Shown here: positions 33,414-44,905 of the stretch, piece by piece
Position numbering within the stretch: the first letter of the stretch is position 1
How the letters are laid out: every line of letters starts with the position of its first letter
Source: Candidatus Altimarinota bacterium
GTDB lineage: Bacteria > Patescibacteriota > Gracilibacteria > BD1-5 > UBA6164
DNA: 44,905 nucleotides
Assembly: GCA_043730605.1 (NCBI GenBank)
Contig: JAYTJZ010000031.1
Span: forward strand, 1 to 44,905
Reading direction: 5' to 3'
The notes under the pieces: model-generated
What the model saw: the letters and a program-made list of their open reading frames with translations, nothing else
Told to the model about the DNA's origin: nothing
Database searches by the model: none
Program-made: the position numbers and the translations under genes

Positions 33414-34469
33414 ATGACTGACCTCAAACTTTCTGACTTTGACTATCATCTTCCTTTAGAACGCATCGCTCAAACTCCAGCAGAGCCAAGAGATAGTAGC
33501 CGTTTACTTTGTCTTTCTCGACATGATGGACAGATACAAGACAAAGTATTTTCTGATATCGCTGATCTACTTGGAAAAAACGACGTTCTCGTCGTAAACC
33601 AAACTCGAGTCATCTCTGCTCGACTCAAGGGAAAAATACTATGAACTGAGAAAACATGTGAAATCTTTCTTCATAAACAGCTTTCTGAGAATACTTGGGA
33701 ATGTCTTGTATATCCAGGAAAAAAACTTAAAGTCGGAGTTAGGATACTTTTTCCGAGTCCGGACTCGTTTGAGTCCGGAATCAAAGCAACTATCATCTCC
33801 ATCACTGAACACGGACGTATCGTAGAATTTTCTCAAACAGGACAAGCGTTTCTAGATAGTATTGAAGAACTCGGAGAAATTCCCTTGCCTCCATATATCA
33901 AGGGTTCTCAGGCAGATGCAGAACGGTACCAAACAGTATATTCAGATAAAACAAAATCTGGAAGTGTTGCAGCTCCAACGGCTGGACTTCATTTCACTCC
34001 TGAACTTTTGAAAAGATTAGAATCGCGTGGAGTTATCATCGAAAAAGTTACCCTTCAAGTATGACTCGGAACTTTTAAAAATGTAGAGGTAGAGAATATC
34101 AAAAATCATATAATGCACAGTGAACAGATAGAAATAGACAAAAATACAGCAGAGAGACTTAATGACTACAAAAAACAAGGGAAACGAATTATCGCGGTTG
34201 GAACAACGAGTGTTCGTACTCTTGAAAGTTTTTGTACACAAAATGGAACTCTCGAATATGGACAAAAAGACACTCAAATATTTATCTATCCTGGCTATGA
34301 GTGGAGATTTGTAGACAGTATCATCACGAACTTCCATCTTCCGAAATCTACTCTCTTAATGCTTGTTTCAAGTTTTGCAGGCAGTGAAAATATCAAAAAA
34401 GCCTACGAACATGCCGTAGACTCTCAGTACCGTTTTTTTAGTTTTGGTGACGCGATGTGGATATATTAA
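33414..34469 (+). CDS. queA: S-adenosylmethionine:tRNA ribosyltransferase-isomerase
   Basis: [32 protein letters not shown] ... PPYI ... RYQTVY ... [12 protein letters not shown] ... [11 protein letters not shown] ... [17 protein letters not shown] ... [10 protein letters not shown]. ORFs 33414-33644 and 34113-34469 are in frame; only TGAs lie between them. Confidence 0.93.
33755..33782. repeat. REP-like palindrome doublet inside queA (GAGTCCGGACTC-GTTT-GAGTCCGGAATC)
   Basis: One perfect and one 11/12 copy of the 12-bp palindrome found 8 times in the window. Read in frame here as ...PSPDSFESG... Confidence 0.85.
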
Positions 34470-35741: not shown

Positions 35742-38700
35742 ATGTCTTTGACAGCTCTCGAACCACATTTTCACTATACTCATGCAGGAGACTTTTTTTC
35801 AAAACTCCTATTTTTGCAAGCAAGTGCAAAAAAGTATGGATATATCCTCCATATCGTTGAAAGTTTCGACCTCCAAAAAAAATACATAAAAATAGCTTCT
35901 GATCTCAATATCTCCTATCACCTTCTCGAAAGCTATCATGATATCCTCTCGCTTTGAGGGAGAAGTGGAGAAATAGGAAGTCTCTGTATCGAAGAAATTC
36001 ATACGACTCTCTGTCAAAAACAACTCGCTGCAACTCTTGGAGTGCAAGTAGGACAACATGGATCTATGGAAGATATGATGAAAGCGCTCCAAGAACTTCA
36101 CTATGAATATCACGAGTATGAAAAAGTTGGAAGTTATTCTCGAAAAGGAGATATCATAAAAATATACCTTCCGAAGAGTGGAAGTATCACGATAAATTTT
36201 TGGGGGAATGAAGTAGAATCTTTGGAACTTTCTTCTTGAGAAAAGCCTCTTTCTTATAGTCTTTTTTCTCTGGAAAAGCTCTGAAATGGAAATGCGTTTT
36301 GCTCAAAACTCTCTGATTTTTTAAAAGAAAAACAGATATTTTTTATCCTTGATATGCTGGAGTTTCATACTGATTTTGAAATACTCAGTCAACTTCCCTA
36401 TCACTCATCTAGTTTTTGAATTCTCGGAACGCAAGAAAGAAATACTCAAGATCTTTGTATCAAGTGAATCGTATGCAATTCTCTCGAAGAACTTCGAAAT
36501 CTTCTTGCTTCAAAAAAAAATACCCTACAGATCTTTACTCGACATCTCAAAATGATGGAAGAATTTTTACGAGATAATGCTCTATGACATATCTCAGTCC
36601 AACTCGTTCATACTCCTTTGTTATCGAGTTTTTCACAAAAAACGATCAATGATATGTCTCCTCTCTTTCTGTGTGACGACATTATAAATAAGATATTTAT
36701 CAAGCGTAGACTCAAGAAAAAGCTTTCTGTCGATGTAGATCTTTTGCTCAAAATACAAAATGGTGACTATATTGTCCACATTGACCACGGAATCGGGATT
36801 TTTAAAGAAATCGTAAAAAAGAAACTTCCTTCACCTTCTGGAGCTCAAAGTATAGAAAAAGAATACCTCGAAATACACTACCAAAAAGAGGATAAACTCT
36901 TCGTTCCTATCACCGAGGTACACCGAGTGAGTAAGTATATCGGAAAAGAAAACCCAGAACTCACTCCACTATGAGGAAAAGTATGGGAAAAAAAGATGAA
37001 GAAGATTCATGAAGATATCAGAGAAATAGCTGAAGAACTTCTCAAAAACTTTGCAGAACGAAAGGCTCGCGGTGGAAACTCCAATATCTTTTTCGAAGAA
37101 AAAATACTTGAGTTTCAAAGAGAATTCGCCTACATCTATACCGAAGACCAGCAGTACAGTATCGATGATATTTTCAAAGATATGTGCTCTACAAAAAATA
37201 TGGATCGACTGCTCGTCGGAGATGTAGGTTTTGGAAAGACAGAAGTAGCTTTCTCTGCTGCCTATCTCGCTCTACTCAATAAAAAACAAGTCATCCTCAT
37301 CTCTCCTCTTGTAGTTCTCGCTCACGAACACTACAGTAAGGCTCTCGAACGTTTTGCTCACTTTGGAGTACGCATCGAAGTTCTTACACGTTTACAAAGC
37401 CAAGCTCATGCAAATCGAGTCATACGAGGACTTGCTGATGGAAGTATTGATATGGTGATAGGAACACATCGTCTGCTTTCTGAAAAGCTGAGTTGGAAAC
37501 GTCTCGGGCTTCTGATCGTCGATGAAGAACATAAGTTCGGAGTCATAGATAAAGAAAAGATTAAACATATTAAATCGGATATCGACATTCTTTCCCTTTC
37601 TGCGACCCCTATTCCTCGCAGTCTCAATCTAGCACTGAGTGGAGTACGTGATATATCTCTGCTCAAAACTCCTCCCAATGGAAGAAAAAGTATAGAAACT
37701 TATGTGACACGCTATAACGAAGCTATCATCAAAGATGCTGGAGAAAAAGAGTTTGCTCGTGGTGGACAAATATTTTTTGTCCATAATCGAGTGTCAAATA
37801 TAGAAGTCATCAAGAAACAGCTCGAAGCTCTCTTTCCTCGAAAAAAAGTAGTGATCACTCATGGACAACTTCCTGGGGATGAGCTCGAAGATAGGATTTT
37901 AGACTTCAAAAATAAAAAATACGATATTCTGCTTTCTACTACGGTTATCGAAAATGGAATAGACTTTTCAAATGTAAATACCATATTCATCAATGAATGT
38001 CAAACATTTGGAATTTCTCAGATACACCAGCTTCGAGGACGAGTAGGTCGCTCTGATGCTCAAGGATACTGTTATCTGCTCTATCGTAAAGAACATCTCG
38101 ATATCGAAGCAGCGAAGCGTATCCAGACAATTGTCGACTATAGCTATCTTGGAGCAGGATTTGAGCTTGCGATGAAAGATCTCGAAATACGAGGAGGAGG
38201 AGATATCCTCTGAGTCAAACAAAGTGGACAAGCTCAAGAGATAGGAGTTTCTCTTTTCCTTAAAATGCTCGAAGAAAAGATAGAAGATCTCAAAAATAAT
38301 CGTGGAGATGAAAACAGTAAGATGAGTCCGGACTCGAATCGAGTCCGGACTCAAGTTGAGCTAGCGATTACTGCAGGGATTCCAGATAGTTTTTTCCTTT
38401 CCGAAACGGATAAACTTCACTTTTACCGAGAAATAGAAATGATAGACGATATCGAAGATCTCGCATATCTCAAGGAAAGTTTTTTCGAAAATATGCAAGA
38501 GGATATGATACTTCCTGAAGAAACCAAGCATCTTTTTATGCTTTTAGAAACACAGATACTCGCACGAAACTATCATATAAAAACGATACGACGAGTCGGA
38601 GTCAACTACCAGATAGAGTTTCAAGGAGAAAATATAGACATCCTCAAATCACTGCTTGCTGTTGATCATGAAGTTCGTTTTCAAGTGATAGACATATCAA

Positions 38701-38825
38701 AATTACGAAGTCCTACAAAACTTTTTGCAAATGACAAATTTTTCATAGAATATGTTCTGTGAATTTTGCAAGGAAAGTCTGGAATATCAAAAAAAATCAA
38801 ACTTATCTCAAAATCTCGCTCATAA
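35742..38825 (+). CDS. mfd: transcription-repair coupling factor
   Basis: ORFs 35691-35957, 36042-36239, 36618-36974, 36996-38213 and 38265-38762 share one frame. CarD-like GDYIVHIDHGIG. Helicase motifs GDVGFGKTEVA, DEEHKFG, LSATPIPR, QLRGRVGRS. RGGGDILG(TGA 38211-38213)VKQSG. Real stop is TAA 38823-38825. Confidence 0.93.
38324..38352. repeat. REP-like palindrome doublet inside mfd (GAGTCCGGACTC-GAATC-GAGTCCGGACTC)
   Basis: Two perfect copies, read in frame as ...KMSPDSNRVRTQ... in a linker region of Mfd. Confidence 0.85.
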
Positions 38826-39462: not shown

Positions 39463-39492
39463 AAAAAACCCTCGCATATGCGAGGGTTTTTT
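39463..39492. terminator. rho-independent terminator after the FKBP gene
   Basis: A-run, CCCTCGCATATGCGAGGG palindrome, T-run. Confidence 0.7.
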
Positions 39493-39523
39493 AGTGTTTT
39501 CTAAAACCCCGGGGTTCTATAAA

Positions 39524-40045
39524 TTAGTATTCAATTTCCGTCAAAATCATATCTTTGTAGTCTCAAAGCTTTTCTTTCTGAGTAAGTTGGTGGTAGCTTG
39601 TCCAAGGATAATCTTCGATTCGTGAAACTATCTCATGTTTAAGTGCATTAAAGTTCACGTATGCTATACATTGTGCAAGATACTGTTCATCTGCGATATG
39701 TTTTGCATGGAAACGTCACTCAAATAAAGGTCATTTCAAATTATATGAGTCCGGACTCAATTGTTTATATCTTGCTCGATAGTACATAGTATATCATTGT
39801 TGTATCTTTCTCATAAAATCAGATATTTCGAGTCCGGACTCAGAAGTTATAATAAAATGGAAGTGATTTGGAAGAAAAGTATACGAACATATTTTTATAC
39901 TTGGAAACTCTTTATTATAACGAATAATAGTTTTATAAAATCGATTAAAATCAAGTACATCATGAAATAAGATATGTTTTCAATACCCTCTATTATAAAT
40001 ATGATAATACTCTTTTTCTAGAAGTGCTTGTTTTCGTATAGGCAT
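39524..40045 (-). CDS. RAYT-like Y1 (HUH) transposase, IS200-like / REP-associated tyrosine transposase family
   Basis: ATG 40045-40043 to TAA 39526-39524, 522 nt, five in-frame TGAs and no TAA/TAG. MPIRKQALLEKEYYHIYNRGYGKHILF ... FLPNHFHFII (HUH) ... KGPLFEGRFHAKHI ... YLAQCIAYVNFNALKH (catalytic Tyr region) ... DYPWTSY. Confidence 0.8.
39747..39758. repeat. REP-like palindrome GAGTCCGGACTC inside the RAYT gene
   Basis: Perfect copy, read in frame as LSPDSY. Confidence 0.85.
39830..39841. repeat. REP-like palindrome GAGTCCGGACTC inside the RAYT gene
   Basis: Perfect copy, read in frame as SESGLE, directly after the HUH motif. Confidence 0.85.
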
Positions 40046-40114
40046 GATAAACTCAAACTCATATAATATATACGTATTATATTCTCTTATATACTTAAAT
40101 CAAGTTTTATAACA

Positions 40115-40160
40115 GAGTCCGGACTCAACTAAAGAATCAGTTTCATTTGAGTCCGGACTC
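40115..40160. repeat. REP-like palindrome pair upstream of the RAYT gene (two perfect copies 22 nt apart)
   Basis: GAGTCCGGACTC at 40115-40126 and 40149-40160, in the non-coding region 5' of the transposase. Confidence 0.85.
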
Positions 40161-40190
40161 GTAGATCTCACTCTTCCCAGAATACACAAC

Positions 40191-40220
40191 AAAACCCCCT
40201 CTCTTTCGAGAGGGGGTTTT
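40191..40220. terminator. rho-independent terminator downstream of the surface-protein gene
   Basis: AAAA, CCCCCTCTC-TTTC-GAGAGGGGG hairpin, TTTT. Confidence 0.7.
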
Positions 40221-40276
40221 GACGAAGTTTCTATTTCTAGAAAACTATTCGATATTCATCTAAGAACTATAAGTGA

Positions 40277-44040: not shown

Positions 44041-44073
44041 AACAAAAACCCCGAGGTGATTTTCACCTCGGGG
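44041..44073 (-). terminator. rho-independent terminator after pilC
   Basis: CCCCGAGGTG-ATTTT-CACCTCGGGG hairpin. On the minus strand it is followed by TTTTTGTTTTT. Confidence 0.75.
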
Positions 44074-44086
44074 TTGAGAAATAGAA

Positions 44087-44905
44087 CTATGCTTGTGAAA
44101 TAGTATCAGCGAGATTCATAATAGGTTGCATGATAGCAATCGCGATAAACCCTACCACTACGGCAAGAAATACGATGATAAATGGTTCAAGAAGTTTGTT
44201 GATAGTTGCTGCTGTATTGTCGACTTGTTCGTCATAAAAGTCTGCGACTTTGATGATAATAGTGTCGAGTTTTGCCGATTGTTCCCCTACTTGTATCATC
44301 TGTACCATGATGTCTGGAAAGAGTTTGTCTCCTTCGAGAGATTCCCATATCTTCATCCCTTGTCGAACATCATCAAGTAGGAGAAGGATTCTTTGTCTAT
44401 ATACTTCGTTTCCTACTGCATCAGCTACTATTTTGAGAGCTTCTACCACGGAAACTCCTGACGACATCAGTCCAGAAAATACTCGTGAGAACTTCGAGAG
44501 AACTACTTTTTGGATAATCATTCCAAAGATAGGAACTTTGAGCATCAGTTTGTCCCAGTTATATTTCCCAGTAGGTGTTTTTTTATAAAATGATATCGCA
44601 AAGTATACAAATACTACAAATATGATGATGAGGTACCAATAATTCACAAATATATCAGAAATCGCTACGAGTATTCTCGTACTCGGTGGAAGTTTCGATT
44701 TATCTTCAAAGATTTCGAGAAGTTTTGGAACTACGACGGTCATCATTACGACGATAACCCCCGTTACTACGAGCATGATCATCGCTGGATAGATAAGTGC
44801 TGATTTGAGTTTCCCTGATATAGATGCTATTTTTTCTACTTGATCAGCCAGAGAGCTCATCACTTCATTGAGTTTCCCTGTTTTTTCCCCAGCTCGTATG
44901 ATACC
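44087..44905 (-). CDS. pilC: type IV pilus / T2SS platform protein (GspF/PilC family), C-terminal part (5' end lies outside the window)
   Basis: ...GIIRAGEKTGKLNEVMSSLADQVEK ... ALIYPAMIMLVV ... typical second GspF repeat. Frame is open to the window edge. Stop at 44087-44089. Confidence 0.88.
   Translation of the reverse strand, partial: GIIRAGEKTGKLNEVMSSLADQVEKIASISGKLKSALIYPAMIMLVVTGVIVVMMTVVVPKLLEIFEDKSKLPPSTRILVAISDIFVNYWYLIIIFVVFVYFAISFYKKTPTGKYNWDKLMLKVPIFGMIIQKVVLSKFSRVFSGLMSSGVSVVEALKIVADAVGNEVYRQRILLLLDDVRQGMKIWESLEGDKLFPDIMVQMIQVGEQSAKLDTIIIKVADFYDEQVDNTAATINKLLEPFIIVFLAVVVGFIAIAIMQPIMNLADTISQA

What the first reader, a model, noticed from the sequence alone, without database searches (positions are those of the whole stretch)
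39524..40160. RAYT-like transposase with a cognate 12-bp palindrome that also sits in frame inside queA, mfd and the transposase gene itself
- GAGTCCGGACTC occurs as 7 perfect copies plus one 11/12 copy in this AT-rich window: 33755, 33771 (imperfect), 38324, 38341, 39747, 39830, 40115 and 40149. That is far beyond chance for a GC-rich 12-mer.
- Three sites are doublets with 4-, 5- and 22-nt spacers, which is REPIN-like.
- The only transposase-like gene in the window is a Y1/HUH RAYT-type protein (HFHFII, catalytic-Tyr region AYVNFNALKH). Two copies lie directly upstream of it and two lie inside its own ORF.
- The palindrome contains no TAA/TAG in any of its three frames, and the strands are identical, so it can insert in any phase. 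It is read as ESGL, SPDS or VRT.
- queA gains PSPDSFESG and mfd gains MSPDSNRVRTQ without frame disruption.
This resembles REP/RAYT systems and the in-frame Rickettsia palindromic elements. I am not aware of it being described in a code-25 lineage.
Basis: partly seen in the sequence, partly recalled or inferred. Interest (0 to 1): 0.8.

Follow-up and report, generated by a model that had tools for sequence, protein, structure and literature searches.

The report
Gracilibacteria RAYT with in-gene palindromes
A small transposase-like gene (a RAYT) in an uncultured Gracilibacteria genome sits among copies of its own 12-base palindrome, and paired copies form hairpins that lie in frame inside essential genes and inside the transposase gene itself, changing sequence together with the enzyme across related genomes.

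Summary
GAGTCCGGACTC occurs 7 times perfectly and once as 11/12, at the stated coordinates (0.05 expected). Doublet spacers are 4, 5 and 22 nt. The 173-aa ORF (39524-40045, minus strand, five in-frame UGA) is a RAYT-type HUH/Y1 protein.

- In a syntenic sister genome with 72.5% nucleotide identity, all 7 copies are perfect at orthologous sites (P about 6e-9).
- Five RAYT clades at the same chromosomal locus each carry their own NNNNCCGGNNNN palindrome. It lies upstream, downstream and at the same two loops inside the RAYT ORF.
- Imperfect units in a doublet are exact reverse complements of each other, so the conserved structure is the two-arm hairpin, as in REPINs. A single unit barely folds.
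- Two syntenic loci without a RAYT have no such palindromes.
- Doublets lie in frame in queA, mfd, htpG, valS, murD-like, ribD and other genes.

Corrections: ESGL in the RAYT is a conserved, co-varying site, not an insertion. The queA and mfd segments are loop expansions of +5 and +7 aa, not clean insertions. Copy number is low (1-8 perfect doublets per assembly) and clustered near the RAYT. There is no GTAG head. Mobility and catalysis are inferred.

Verdict: a new variant of the REP/REPIN-RAYT kind.

The parts
39524..40045 (-). RAYT-type HUH/Y1 ORF of 173 aa, with five in-frame UGA (Gly) codons, HUH at H61-F62-H63 and catalytic Tyr at Y129
   Evidence: translation. (Pfam Y1_Tnp, 36.6 bits). 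(NCBIfam REP_Tyr_transpos 66 bits against IS200 15 bits). (best PDB sequence hit 4er8; Y129 aligns with Y115). (model of homologue P0006; best fold match 4er8_A, TM 0.65-0.67).
39830..39841 (.). Intragenic palindrome site 1 (GAGTCCGGACTC), read in frame 0 as E69-S-G-L72 in the loop directly after the HUH strand
   Evidence: It is at the same position and frame in all clades, and its sequence equals the local flanking palindrome: ETGL, KSGL, GTGT or NPGV. In the P0006 model the loop follows strand 61-68.
39747..39758 (.). Intragenic palindrome site 2, read as S97-P-D-S100 in the variable loop before the FEGRF strand; it can pair with site 1 across 71 nt
   Evidence: The predicted site 1:site 2 stem is -14.6 kcal/mol as DNA. 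In L092 and L142 the two sites are imperfect palindromes but exact reverse complements of each other.
40115..40160 (.). Upstream doublet: two perfect palindromes separated by 22 nt, between the terminator of the SLH-protein gene and the RAYT promoter-like site
   Evidence: Folds at -15.9 kcal/mol. An orthologous doublet exists in L001. Equivalent upstream doublets occur in L056, L057, L062 and L063.
40076..40103 (-). Promoter-like -35/-10 site (TTGATT, 16 nt, TATAAT) between the upstream doublet and the RAYT start codon
   Evidence: This is a consensus match only.
39505..39516 (.). Single AACCCCGGGGTT, 7 nt after the RAYT stop codon; this palindrome type belongs to another RAYT clade (L062, L153)
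   Evidence: In L001 the downstream position is occupied by the compensated doublet GAGTCCGGATTC/GAATCCGGACTC, though one search gives no base-level alignment of the two downstream regions.
38324..38352 (.). Doublet hairpin (12+5+12 nt) in frame in mfd, read as M861-SPDSNRVRT-Q871, in the linker before the TRCF domain
   Evidence: Folds at -17.4 kcal/mol. Orthologous and perfect in L001. The linker is 20 aa here against 13 aa in palindrome-free L061.
33755..33782 (.). Doublet (12+4+12 nt, second arm 11/12) in frame in queA, read as S115-PDSFESG-I123, in a surface loop
   Evidence: The same site carries a doublet in L004, L010 and L033, with identical arm codons and different spacers. The loop is 5 aa longer than in L061 and in the 343-aa orthologues.
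33414..34469 (+). queA (351 aa), a host gene of the doublet
   Evidence: Pfam Queuosine_synth, 436 bits. (PDB 1yy3, 1vky).
35742..38825 (+). mfd (1027 aa), a host gene of the doublet
   Evidence: CarD_TRCF_RID, DEAD, Helicase_C and TRCF domains.
39463..39492 (.). Terminator-like hairpin between the convergent FKBP gene and the RAYT; it marks the 3' boundary of the RAYT cassette
40190..40221 (-). Terminator-like hairpin of the upstream SLH-protein gene; it marks the 5' boundary of the RAYT cassette
   Evidence: Conserved in L001.

Best explanation
This is a REPIN/RAYT-type system of Candidatus Gracilibacteria. The 173-aa ORF is a vertically inherited HUH/Y1 single-strand DNA nuclease/transferase, and its cognate DNA is a hairpin built from two 12-nt arms of the form NNNNCCGGNNNN (here GAGTCCGGACTC).

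Proposed mechanism: the enzyme recognises the folded hairpin on single-stranded DNA and cuts and rejoins next to it. Over evolutionary time this seeds and/or homogenises arms, mostly close to its own gene. That would explain copies upstream, downstream and inside the RAYT ORF, in mfd 1.2 kb away and in queA 5.8 kb away.

The arms are 12 nt long and stop-free in all frames, and these genomes are almost entirely coding. Surviving copies therefore lie in frame in tolerant surface loops of housekeeping genes, where they read as SPDS, ESGL or VRT.

Shown here:
- the RAYT's identity by sequence, and the TnpA_REP fold of a 59%-identical homologue;
- the physical association of palindromes with the RAYT;
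- co-variation of palindrome type with RAYT clade;
- compensatory maintenance of the two-arm stem;
- DNA-level conservation of the arms;
- residence in frame in coding sequence;
- absence of the palindromes where the RAYT is absent.

Inferred only:
- catalysis;
- action on single-stranded DNA;
- mobility or gene-conversion-like homogenisation;
- preference for acting near its own gene;
- any autoregulation through the upstream doublet or the site 1:site 2 stem.
For: 1. RAYT identity.
- REP_Tyr_transpos scores 66 bits against 15 bits for IS200.
- HUH and Tyr are invariant, and Y129 aligns with Y115 of E. coli TnpA_REP.
- A model of the 59%-identical homologue P0006 (pLDDT 89) best matches 4er8_A, TnpA_REP bound to a REP hairpin, at E 2e-8, ahead of IS608 and ISDra2 TnpA.

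2. Enrichment and conservation.
- 8 copies against 0.05 expected.
- Against syntenic L001 (72.5% identity), only 6.7% of 12-mers are conserved, yet 7 of 7 palindromes are.
- Arm codons are identical in four QueA orthologues while flanking synonymous sites and spacers vary.

3. Cognate co-variation at one syntenic locus (T2SSF, SLH protein, RAYT, FKBP, Mfd).
- GAGTCCGGACTC: window, L001, L058, L008, L028, L092/L142, L129, L146.
- GAGACCGGTCTC: L056.
- GGTACCGGTACC: L057, L059.
- AACCCCGGGGTT: L062, L153.
- AAGTCCGGACTT: L063.
- In the loci read at DNA level the type recurs upstream of and inside the RAYT ORF, and downstream in L001, L056, L062 and L153. The window and L063 have no cognate downstream copy.
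- The RAYT tree groups these as ESGL/SPDS, KSGL/SPDL, ETGL/ETGL, GTGT/GTGT and NPGV clades.

4. Hairpin as the unit.
- All five adjacent same-family doublets in which each unit has one deviation are exact reverse complements of each other: L001, L009, L028, L058, L062.
- Further compensated pairs occur at L092/L142 site 1:site 2 and in L153.
- Predicted DNA folding is -0.6 kcal/mol for one unit and -12 to -17 kcal/mol for doublets.

5. Presence/absence. Syntenic L061 and L152 lack a RAYT and have no such palindrome in 15 and 21 kb. Every RAYT-bearing locus examined (13, counting the window) has at least one perfect copy, and all but L058 have three or more counting near-perfect copies.

6. Coding residence. 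In-frame doublets occur in QueA, Mfd, HtpG, ValRS, POR, RibD, a MurD-like ligase, a pyruvyl transferase, an HI0933-like protein and UPF0489, across 8 MAGs.

7. Clustering. Three of the 5 perfect doublets in the sister assembly lie within 7 kb of its RAYT.
Against: - No cleavage, binding or transposition was tested.
- No presence/absence polymorphism was found. All window copies are orthologous and old relative to L001.
- No clean empty-site/filled-site junction could be reconstructed. Doublets are 28-29 nt, but host loops are only 4-7 aa longer.
- Loops of doublets differ between copies even within one genome, so there is no sign of recent copy-and-paste of whole hairpins.
- Copy number is very low for a REPIN family (1-8 perfect short doublets per assembly).
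- There is no GTAG/CGTC head or other conserved flank.
- The NCBIfam score is below the curated cut-off.
- Distant RAYTs (33-45% identity) share the GAGTCCGGACTC type while closer ones differ, so co-divergence is not simple.
Confidence: 0.7

Rival explanations
1. The hairpins are immobile, host-selected structural or regulatory elements, for example mRNA or ssDNA hairpins that affect transcript stability, translation pausing, replication or chromosome structure. The RAYT is a fully domesticated sequence-specific nuclease or binding protein that services or regulates them. Arms stay perfect because of purifying selection on function, not because of copying.
For: - Copies are static and perfectly conserved at orthologous sites at 72.5% nucleotide identity.
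- The queA doublet is shared by at least five lineages.
- Loops differ between copies, so there is no sign of recent copying.
- Copy number is low.
- The RAYT sits at a fixed syntenic locus, as a housekeeping gene would. This agrees with the view of RAYTs as domesticated genes in PMC5581495.
Against: - It does not explain why unrelated essential genes (queA, mfd, htpG, valS and others) would each need the same hairpin.
- It does not explain why the same queA loop carries three different palindrome families and many other inserts.
- It does not explain why copies pile up in and around the RAYT gene.
- Palindrome-free orthologues and whole syntenic loci function without them (L061, L152).
Confidence: 0.2
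2. The hairpins are made without the RAYT, by replication template switching (quasipalindrome correction or inverted duplication) around a stable GC-rich core. The RAYT merely happens to lie in a region rich in them.
For: - In 12 of 24 short-loop doublets the stem runs at least 3 nt into locus-specific flanks (null expectation 2.3%). It reaches 14-16 nt in L012 and L136, and 8 nt inside a POR ORF in L020.
- Mutations in the two arms are compensated.
- Host loops gain less length than a doublet would add.
Against: - Template switching can perfect or extend a hairpin, but it cannot make the same 12-mer at unlinked loci.
- It cannot make that 12-mer match the one inside and around the local RAYT in five separate clades.
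- RAYT-less syntenic loci have none.
- It may still be a secondary process acting on seeded copies.
Confidence: 0.05
3. The palindrome is the target of some other system: an operator for a dimeric DNA-binding regulator, a DNA-uptake sequence, or a methylation/restriction-linked iterated palindrome of the HIP1 kind centred on CCGG.
For: - A perfect 12-bp palindrome with an invariant CCGG core is what a dimeric dsDNA-binding protein or a CCGG methyltransferase would see.
- CCGG outside the palindromes is mildly below expectation (7 against 13.4 in the window; 0 against 2.3 in L152).
- The window encodes a partial type IV pilus/T2SF-like (PilC-type) protein, translated at the window's right-hand end (44087-44905, minus strand). 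Its syntenic counterparts in L001 hit Pfam T2SSE and T2SSF.
Against: - Density is far too low and too clustered for an uptake sequence: none in 33 kb of the window.
- Most copies are inside unrelated coding sequences.
- Compensated doublets break the individual palindromes but keep arm-to-arm pairing, which argues against a dimer site on dsDNA.
- Palindrome type tracks the RAYT clade.
- The CCGG depletion is weak.
Confidence: 0.05

Closest known systems
REP/REPIN-RAYT systems of Proteobacteria (E. coli TnpA_REP/yafM with REP-BIMEs; Pseudomonas REPINs)
   Same: - An HUH/Y1 protein closer to RAYT than to IS200 by profile, with the homologue model closest to TnpA_REP by fold.
- The gene is flanked by its cognate palindromes, as described in PMC2817692.
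- The functional unit is a two-arm hairpin, as in REPINs.
- The gene is usually single-copy at a conserved locus, suggesting vertical inheritance. This matches PMC5581495.
- The palindrome co-varies with the RAYT clade.
   Different: - Arms are 12-nt perfect palindromes with an invariant CCGG centre, not imperfect palindromes of 20-40 nt.
- There is no GT(A/G)G or CGTC head.
- Copies are mostly inside coding sequences rather than extragenic.
- Copies sit inside the RAYT ORF at conserved loops and co-vary with the flanking ones.
- Copy number is 1-8 perfect doublets per assembly rather than tens to hundreds.
- The host is a reduced-genome, code-25 CPR lineage.
IS200/IS605 family (IS608, ISDra2 TnpA)
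   Same: - Y1 HUH fold.
- A transposase gene bracketed by subterminal hairpins.
- Single-strand DNA hairpin recognition is the expected mode of action.
   Different: - The IS200 profile scores only 15 bits.
- The gene is not multi-copy or mobile as a unit: it lies at the same syntenic locus in eight loci, namely the window and L001, L057, L058, L059, L062, L063 and L153.
- The hairpin arms are dispersed on their own.
Rickettsia palindromic elements (RPEs) and Coxiella MITEs inserted in frame in genes
   Same: Palindromic repeats are tolerated in frame inside housekeeping proteins of reduced genomes and are translated as surface-loop peptides. This comparison rests on my own knowledge of Ogata et al. 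2000, plus titles and abstracts.
   Different: - RPEs are 100-150 bp and have no known cognate transposase.
- Here the element is 28-30 nt, has a linked RAYT that co-varies with it, and also occupies the transposase gene.
HIP1 (GCGATCGC) highly iterated palindromes of cyanobacteria
   Same: A short perfect palindrome is over-represented, frequent in coding sequence, and conserved at orthologous sites beyond neutral expectation. This comparison rests on my own knowledge.
   Different: - HIP1 is genome-wide and abundant, single-unit, and linked to methyltransferases rather than to a RAYT.
- Here copies are few, paired, clustered by the RAYT, and clade-specific.

Membership tests
RAYT (REP-associated tyrosine transposase) | HUH metal-binding motif and a single catalytic tyrosine on the Y1 fold | tested here: met
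   H61-F62-H63 and Y129 are invariant in A1. Y129 aligns with E. coli Y115 and HUH with H59-M60-H61 (PMC3479197). The best fold match of the homologue model is 4er8_A.
RAYT (REP-associated tyrosine transposase) | Sequence closer to RAYT than to IS200/IS605 TnpA, above the curated family threshold | tested here: inconclusive
   NCBIfam REP_Tyr_transpos (NF047646) scores 66 bits, which is best by far but below the cut-off of 80. transpos_IS200 scores 15 bits. It is a divergent branch.
RAYT (REP-associated tyrosine transposase) | Gene flanked by two cognate REPs in inverted orientation | tested here: met
   The window has an upstream doublet only, plus a foreign-type palindrome downstream. L001, L062 and L153 have doublets on both sides, and L056a has single cognate copies on both sides.
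RAYT (REP-associated tyrosine transposase) | Usually single-copy, vertically inherited, housekeeping-like distribution | tested here: inconclusive
   The syntenic position is the same in the window, L001, L057, L058, L059 (inferred), L062, L063 and L153. L056 has two copies. Whole-genome copy number could not be counted.
REP / REPIN | Two inverted REP arms forming a hairpin that evolves as one unit | tested here: met
   There are 34 perfect doublets. All 5 doublets with one deviation per arm are compensated. More compensated pairs appear. Doublets fold at -12 to -17 kcal/mol against -0.6 for a single arm.
REP / REPIN | Conserved GT(A/G)G or CGTC tetranucleotide head at the hairpin foot | tested here: not met
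   No base is conserved in the 8 nt on either side of 23 doublets.
REP / REPIN | Extragenic location | tested here: not met
   Most short-loop doublets lie in long code-25 ORFs with Pfam-confirmed housekeeping identities.
REP / REPIN | High copy number across the replicon (tens to hundreds) | tested here: not met
   There are 1-8 perfect doublets (spacer 30 nt or less) per species-representative Gracilibacteria/Patescibacteria assembly, and none in the first 33 kb of the window. Singletons and degenerate copies were not counted genome-wide.
REP / REPIN | Mobilised or cleaved by the cognate RAYT | not testable with these tools
   This needs biochemistry or strain-level polymorphism. Only association and co-variation are shown.
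IS200/IS605 insertion sequence | Multi-copy mobile unit carrying tnpA between left-end and right-end hairpins | tested here: not met
   The locus is fixed and syntenic across species, and the IS200 profile scores 15 bits.

The most novel reading that the evidence does not exclude
The two palindromes inside the RAYT ORF are functional parts of the system. They lie at fixed loops, always match the flanking type, and can pair with each other. They might be a built-in master copy from which genomic arms are templated, or an autoregulatory hairpin that the enzyme binds in its own gene or mRNA.

On this reading, enzyme and target are written in the same stretch of DNA and change specificity together. 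The RAYT keeps rewriting short segments of essential genes, and of itself, by a conversion-like process. The family NNNNCCGGNNNN would then be a minimal, naturally re-programmed recognition code for an HUH nuclease, with at least five cognate pairs available for testing.
Probability: 0.25. Interest if true: 0.85.

Novelty: new variant of a known kind. Interest (0 to 1): 0.72.

Why it matters
- **Host range and form.** REP/RAYT systems are known mostly from Proteobacteria, as extragenic, high-copy elements. Here the same kind of enzyme-plus-hairpin pair appears in an ultra-small, recoded CPR lineage in a stripped-down form: 12-nt arms with a CCGG centre and no head sequence.
- **Coding residence.** The hairpins live inside coding sequence, including essential genes and the RAYT gene itself. 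A REPIN-like element can therefore persist in a genome with almost no intergenic space by being stop-free and translated as tolerated loop peptides.
- **A testable series.** Five or more clade-specific RAYT/palindrome pairs at one syntenic locus, plus RAYT-less controls, form a natural specificity-swap series. That makes the open questions about RAYTs directly testable: what they recognise, whether they move or only maintain REPINs, and how the pair co-evolves.
- **Annotation.** SPDS/ESGL/VRT-type peptides, and other loop inserts in Gracilibacteria proteins, are repeat-derived.

Tried and rejected
- **Structure prediction for the window RAYT.** I used the 59%-identical, natively translated homologue P0006 instead.
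- **Metagenome doublet scan.** Most of the 88 hits are unrelated repeats: GC 0.40-0.71, spacers GAGTCC/GGACTC, or tandem arrays. Only a few Gracilibacteria-like contigs and four more RAYT loci were useful.
- **High-GC hits in the genome scan.** Acidimicrobiia, Brevundimonas, Streptomyces and Thermoanaerobaculia carry other repeat arrays that contain the same 12-mer. I set them aside.
- **Head sequence.** I looked for a GTAG/CGTC head or any conserved flank and found none. The GTAG at 40161-40164 is not conserved in L001.
- **CCGG avoidance as a restriction-modification signal.** The depletion is weak and not decisive.
- **Rfam.** Only three tRNAs, and nothing at the palindromes.
- **Exact insertion junctions.** I tried to reconstruct them from filled and empty queA and mfd sites. 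This is not possible at about 70% identity, and the net gains of +15 and +21 nt do not equal 12, 24, 28 or 29 nt.
- **Literature.** Searches for the motifs, for Gracilibacteria repeats, and for REPs inside RAYT ORFs found no prior description.
- **DNA-uptake sequence and operator readings.** I considered both and rejected them on density, clustering, coding location and arm-to-arm compensation.
Full report
**1. The observation**

GAGTCCGGACTC occurs perfectly at 33755, 38324, 38341, 39747, 39830, 40115 and 40149. It occurs as 11/12 (GAGTCCGGAATC) at 33771. Dinucleotide-preserving shuffles give a mean of 0.05 matches and a maximum of 2. The three doublets have spacers of 4, 5 and 22 nt. All copies lie between 33.7 and 40.2 kb, and the first 33 kb has none.

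The window gives long ORFs only if TGA is read as sense. TGA aligns with GGA at conserved glycines: QueA HGR in L004, L010 and L033 against the window, and RAYT FE-TGA-RF against FEGRF. Homologues are named Candidatus Gracilibacteria. The code-25 reading is therefore sound.

**2. The ORF**

The ORF spans 39524-40045 on the minus strand and encodes 173 aa with five in-frame TGA codons.
- It passes Pfam Y1_Tnp at 36.6 bits.
- It scores 66 bits on NCBIfam REP_Tyr_transpos, below the cut-off of 80, against 15 bits on IS200.
- Its best PDB sequence hit is E. coli TnpA_REP (4er8). H61-F62-H63 aligns with that protein's HUH and Y129 with its catalytic Y115 (residue roles from PMC3479197).

I therefore modelled the natively translated 59%-identical homologue P0006 (pLDDT 89, pTM 0.84). 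Its best structural match is 4er8_A (E 2e-8, TM 0.65-0.67), ahead of IS608 and ISDra2 TnpA. The ORF is a divergent RAYT.

**3. A sister genome shows the copies are old and under DNA-level constraint**

L001 (GCA_035905775.1) is syntenic: T2SSE, T2SSF, SLH protein, RAYT, FKBP, Mfd and QueA. It is 72.5% identical over 11.5 kb. Only 6.7% of aligned 12-mers are conserved, yet all seven perfect palindromes are perfect at orthologous positions, which gives P of about 6e-9.

In four QueA orthologues (window, L004, L010, L033) the arm codons are identical. The spacers (GTTT, GGAT, TAAA, TAAG) and neighbouring synonymous sites differ. The constraint therefore acts on nucleic acid, not on protein.

**4. 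The palindrome is cognate to the RAYT**

RAYT homologues at the same syntenic locus carry other palindromes of the same design, NNNNCCGGNNNN:
- GAGACCGGTCTC in L056 (RAYT 59% identical);
- GGTACCGGTACC in L057 (51%) and L059;
- AACCCCGGGGTT in L062 (52%) and L153;
- AAGTCCGGACTT in L063 (61%).

GAGTCCGGACTC also surrounds RAYTs in L058, L008, L028, L092/L142, L129 and L146.

The layout is usually the same:
- an upstream doublet with a spacer of 22-54 nt;
- a copy in frame 0 in the loop directly after the HUH strand (site 1);
- usually a second copy in the loop before the FEGRF strand (site 2);
- often a downstream or C-terminal doublet.

In the protein tree the two internal sites change together by clade: ESGL/SPDS, KSGL/SPDL, ETGL/ETGL, GTGT/GTGT, KTGL/KTGL and NPGV. 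More distant Y1 proteins have none.

Two syntenic loci without a RAYT between the FKBP and SLH-protein genes, L061 and L152, have no such palindrome in 15 and 21 kb.

**5. The unit is the two-arm hairpin**

A single 12-mer folds at -0.6 kcal/mol as DNA. Doublets fold at -11.9 (queA), -17.4 (mfd) and -15.9 (upstream) kcal/mol, and site 1 with site 2 at -14.6.

Where units are imperfect palindromes, the two units of a doublet are exact reverse complements of each other:
- L001: GAGTCCGGATTC and GAATCCGGACTC;
- L062: AAGCCCGGGGTT and AACCCCGGGCTT;
- also L058, L009 and L028.

That is all five adjacent same-family doublets with one deviation per unit. The chance expectation is about 1/36 for each. 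The same holds for site 1:site 2 in L092/L142 and for a doublet in L153. This is REPIN-like behaviour. It argues against a dimer-binding site on duplex DNA.

**6. Coding residence**

A scan of species-representative genomes found short-loop (4-6 nt) doublets in eight Gracilibacteria/Patescibacteria MAGs. Most lie in long code-25 ORFs. Pfam identifies these as HtpG, ValRS, pyruvate:ferredoxin oxidoreductase, RibD, a MurD-like ligase, a pyruvyl transferase, an HI0933-like flavoprotein and UPF0489, in addition to QueA and Mfd. With 4-nt loops, the frame xSPDSxESGL predominates.

The queA site is a surface loop that is 5-6 aa shorter in solved structures. It is 5 aa shorter in the 343-aa Gracilibacteria orthologues and in L061. 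The mfd site is a linker of 20 aa against 13 aa in L061. The segments are therefore derived loop expansions, but they are not clean insertions of 12, 24, 28 or 29 nt.

The same queA loop carries a GGTACCGGTACC doublet in L059, a single GAGACCGGTCTC in L060, and many unrelated inserts in other lineages. The SPDSxESGL state is scattered on the QueA tree.

**7.

- ESGL in the RAYT is not an insertion. It is a conserved, ungapped, co-varying site.
- The family is low-copy and concentrated near the RAYT. Three of the five perfect doublets of the sister assembly lie within 7 kb of its RAYT.
- There is no GTAG/CGTC head.
- The copies are not visibly mobile on the time scale sampled.

**8. Mechanism**

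Best-supported reading (0.7): a REPIN/RAYT-type pair. The HUH/Y1 enzyme recognises the folded two-arm hairpin on single-stranded DNA. Over time it seeds and/or homogenises arms, preferentially near its own gene. Stop-free 12-nt arms survive in frame in tolerant loops.

The following are shown: identity, association, co-variation, compensation, conservation, coding residence, and the presence/absence correlation. The following are inferred: catalysis, the ssDNA substrate, mobility or conversion, preference for acting near its own gene, and autoregulation. For the last, the only support is a promoter-like site at 40103-40076, just inside the upstream doublet.

Rivals:
- Immobile host-selected hairpins serviced by a domesticated RAYT (0.2).
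- RAYT-independent template-switch palindromisation (0.05). This may still act secondarily, because 12 of 24 short-loop doublets have stems running 3-16 nt into locus-specific flanks against a 2.3% null.
- An operator, uptake sequence or methylation-linked palindrome (0.05). CCGG depletion outside the palindromes is weak.

**9. Comparison and novelty**

The system works like REP/REPIN-RAYT systems and meets several of their defining features: the HUH/Tyr fold, flanking cognate palindromes, a hairpin doublet unit, and a syntenic, mostly single-copy gene. It fails others: no head tetranucleotide, not extragenic, not high-copy. Those definitions come from PMC2817692, PMC5581495 and PMC3479197.

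It resembles Rickettsia RPEs only in being translated in frame. It resembles HIP1 only in being a conserved short palindrome.

Literature searches found no description of these motifs, of REP/RAYT in Gracilibacteria, or of REPs inside RAYT ORFs. I rate it a new variant of a known kind, with interest 0.72.

Noticed in passing
window 39505-39516: A single AACCCCGGGGTT lies 7 nt after the RAYT stop codon. This 12-mer is the cognate palindrome of another RAYT clade (L062, L153; site-1 peptide NPGV). About 0.03 such CCGG-centred perfect palindromes would be expected by chance among the window's remaining CCGG sites.
   Followed up: partly
QueA loop (window aa 113-124); proteins P0060, P0069, P0074, P0077, P0088, P0097, P0141, P0146, P0153, P0173: The same QueA loop is an indel hotspot across Gracilibacteria. 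Inserts of 10-45 aa look like translated GC-rich repeats (PLPLGEGLGEG, PFSSGRERIQDWVV, QPLS[FL]EKGE[ND]S). This suggests further families of in-frame repeat elements in this lineage.
   Followed up: no
L012 4594, L136 1995, L055 7518, L020 1970, L008 2825, L064 4910 and others: In half of the short-loop doublets the perfect stem continues 3-16 nt beyond the 12-nt arms into locus-specific sequence (12 of 24 with at least 3 nt, against a 2.3% null). In L020 it runs 8 nt inside a 580-aa POR ORF. Old orthologous doublets in QueA, Mfd, HtpG and ValRS show 0-1 nt.
   Followed up: partly
L056 5100-6981 (GCA_028685995.1): Two near-identical RAYT copies, each with its own upstream and internal GAGACCGGTCTC copies, bracket a small ORF and a ParE/YafQ-type toxin gene. 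A GGTACCGGTACC pair of another family lies just after the first copy.
   Followed up: no
L152 (GCA_010119145.1), whole 21 kb: This syntenic locus has no RAYT and contains no CCGG tetranucleotide at all (Markov expectation 2.3). In RAYT-bearing loci more than half of all CCGG sites lie inside the palindromes.
   Followed up: partly
L153 20846-20875 (GCA_013350265.1): A compensated doublet GAGACCGGTCTT / AAGACCGGTCTC of a second family sits upstream of the SLH-protein gene, in a genome whose RAYT is of the AACCCCGGGGTT type. L005 and L043 also carry GGTACCGGTACC copies beside GAGTCCGGACTC doublets. Several palindrome families can therefore coexist in one genome.
   Followed up: no
window 44047-44075: A perfect 12-bp-stem hairpin, AACCCCGAGGTG-5 nt-CACCTCGGGGTT, lies between the T2SSF-like and SLH-protein genes. 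It may be an ordinary terminator or a diverged doublet of the AACCCCGGGGTT family.
   Followed up: no
L092/L142 455-490, L028 459-491, L129 475-509, L146 218-261 and 559-582: Some RAYTs carry additional in-frame doublets: in their C-terminal region, and in L146 inside the site-1 loop. RAYT genes are the densest carriers of their own palindrome.
   Followed up: partly
L013, L016, L017, L019, L031, L034, L036, L047 (Acidimicrobiia GFS_5804); L003, L023, L030, L037 (Brevundimonas); L006: High-GC genomes contain the same 12-mer inside regular tandem arrays, with period 27 in the Acidimicrobiia MAG, 37 in Brevundimonas and 20 in a Deltaproteobacteria MAG. These are unrelated to the Gracilibacteria system.
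   Followed up: no
metagenome loci such as L067, L071, L079-L081, L084-L091 (Ga0209145, Ga0209783, Ga0056108): Many contigs of GC 0.40-0.48 carry GAGTCCGGACTC-GAGTCC/GGACTC-GAGTCCGGACTC repeats in a conserved longer context (peptides such as LVVLESGLGLESGLES). This is a different repeat family of unknown origin.
   Followed up: no
window 15151-15235, 17547-17623, 17643-17720: tRNA-Leu(TAA), tRNA-Ala(TGC) and tRNA-Asp(GTC) lie on the minus strand. There is no tRNA-Gly(UCA) in this window.
   Followed up: yes
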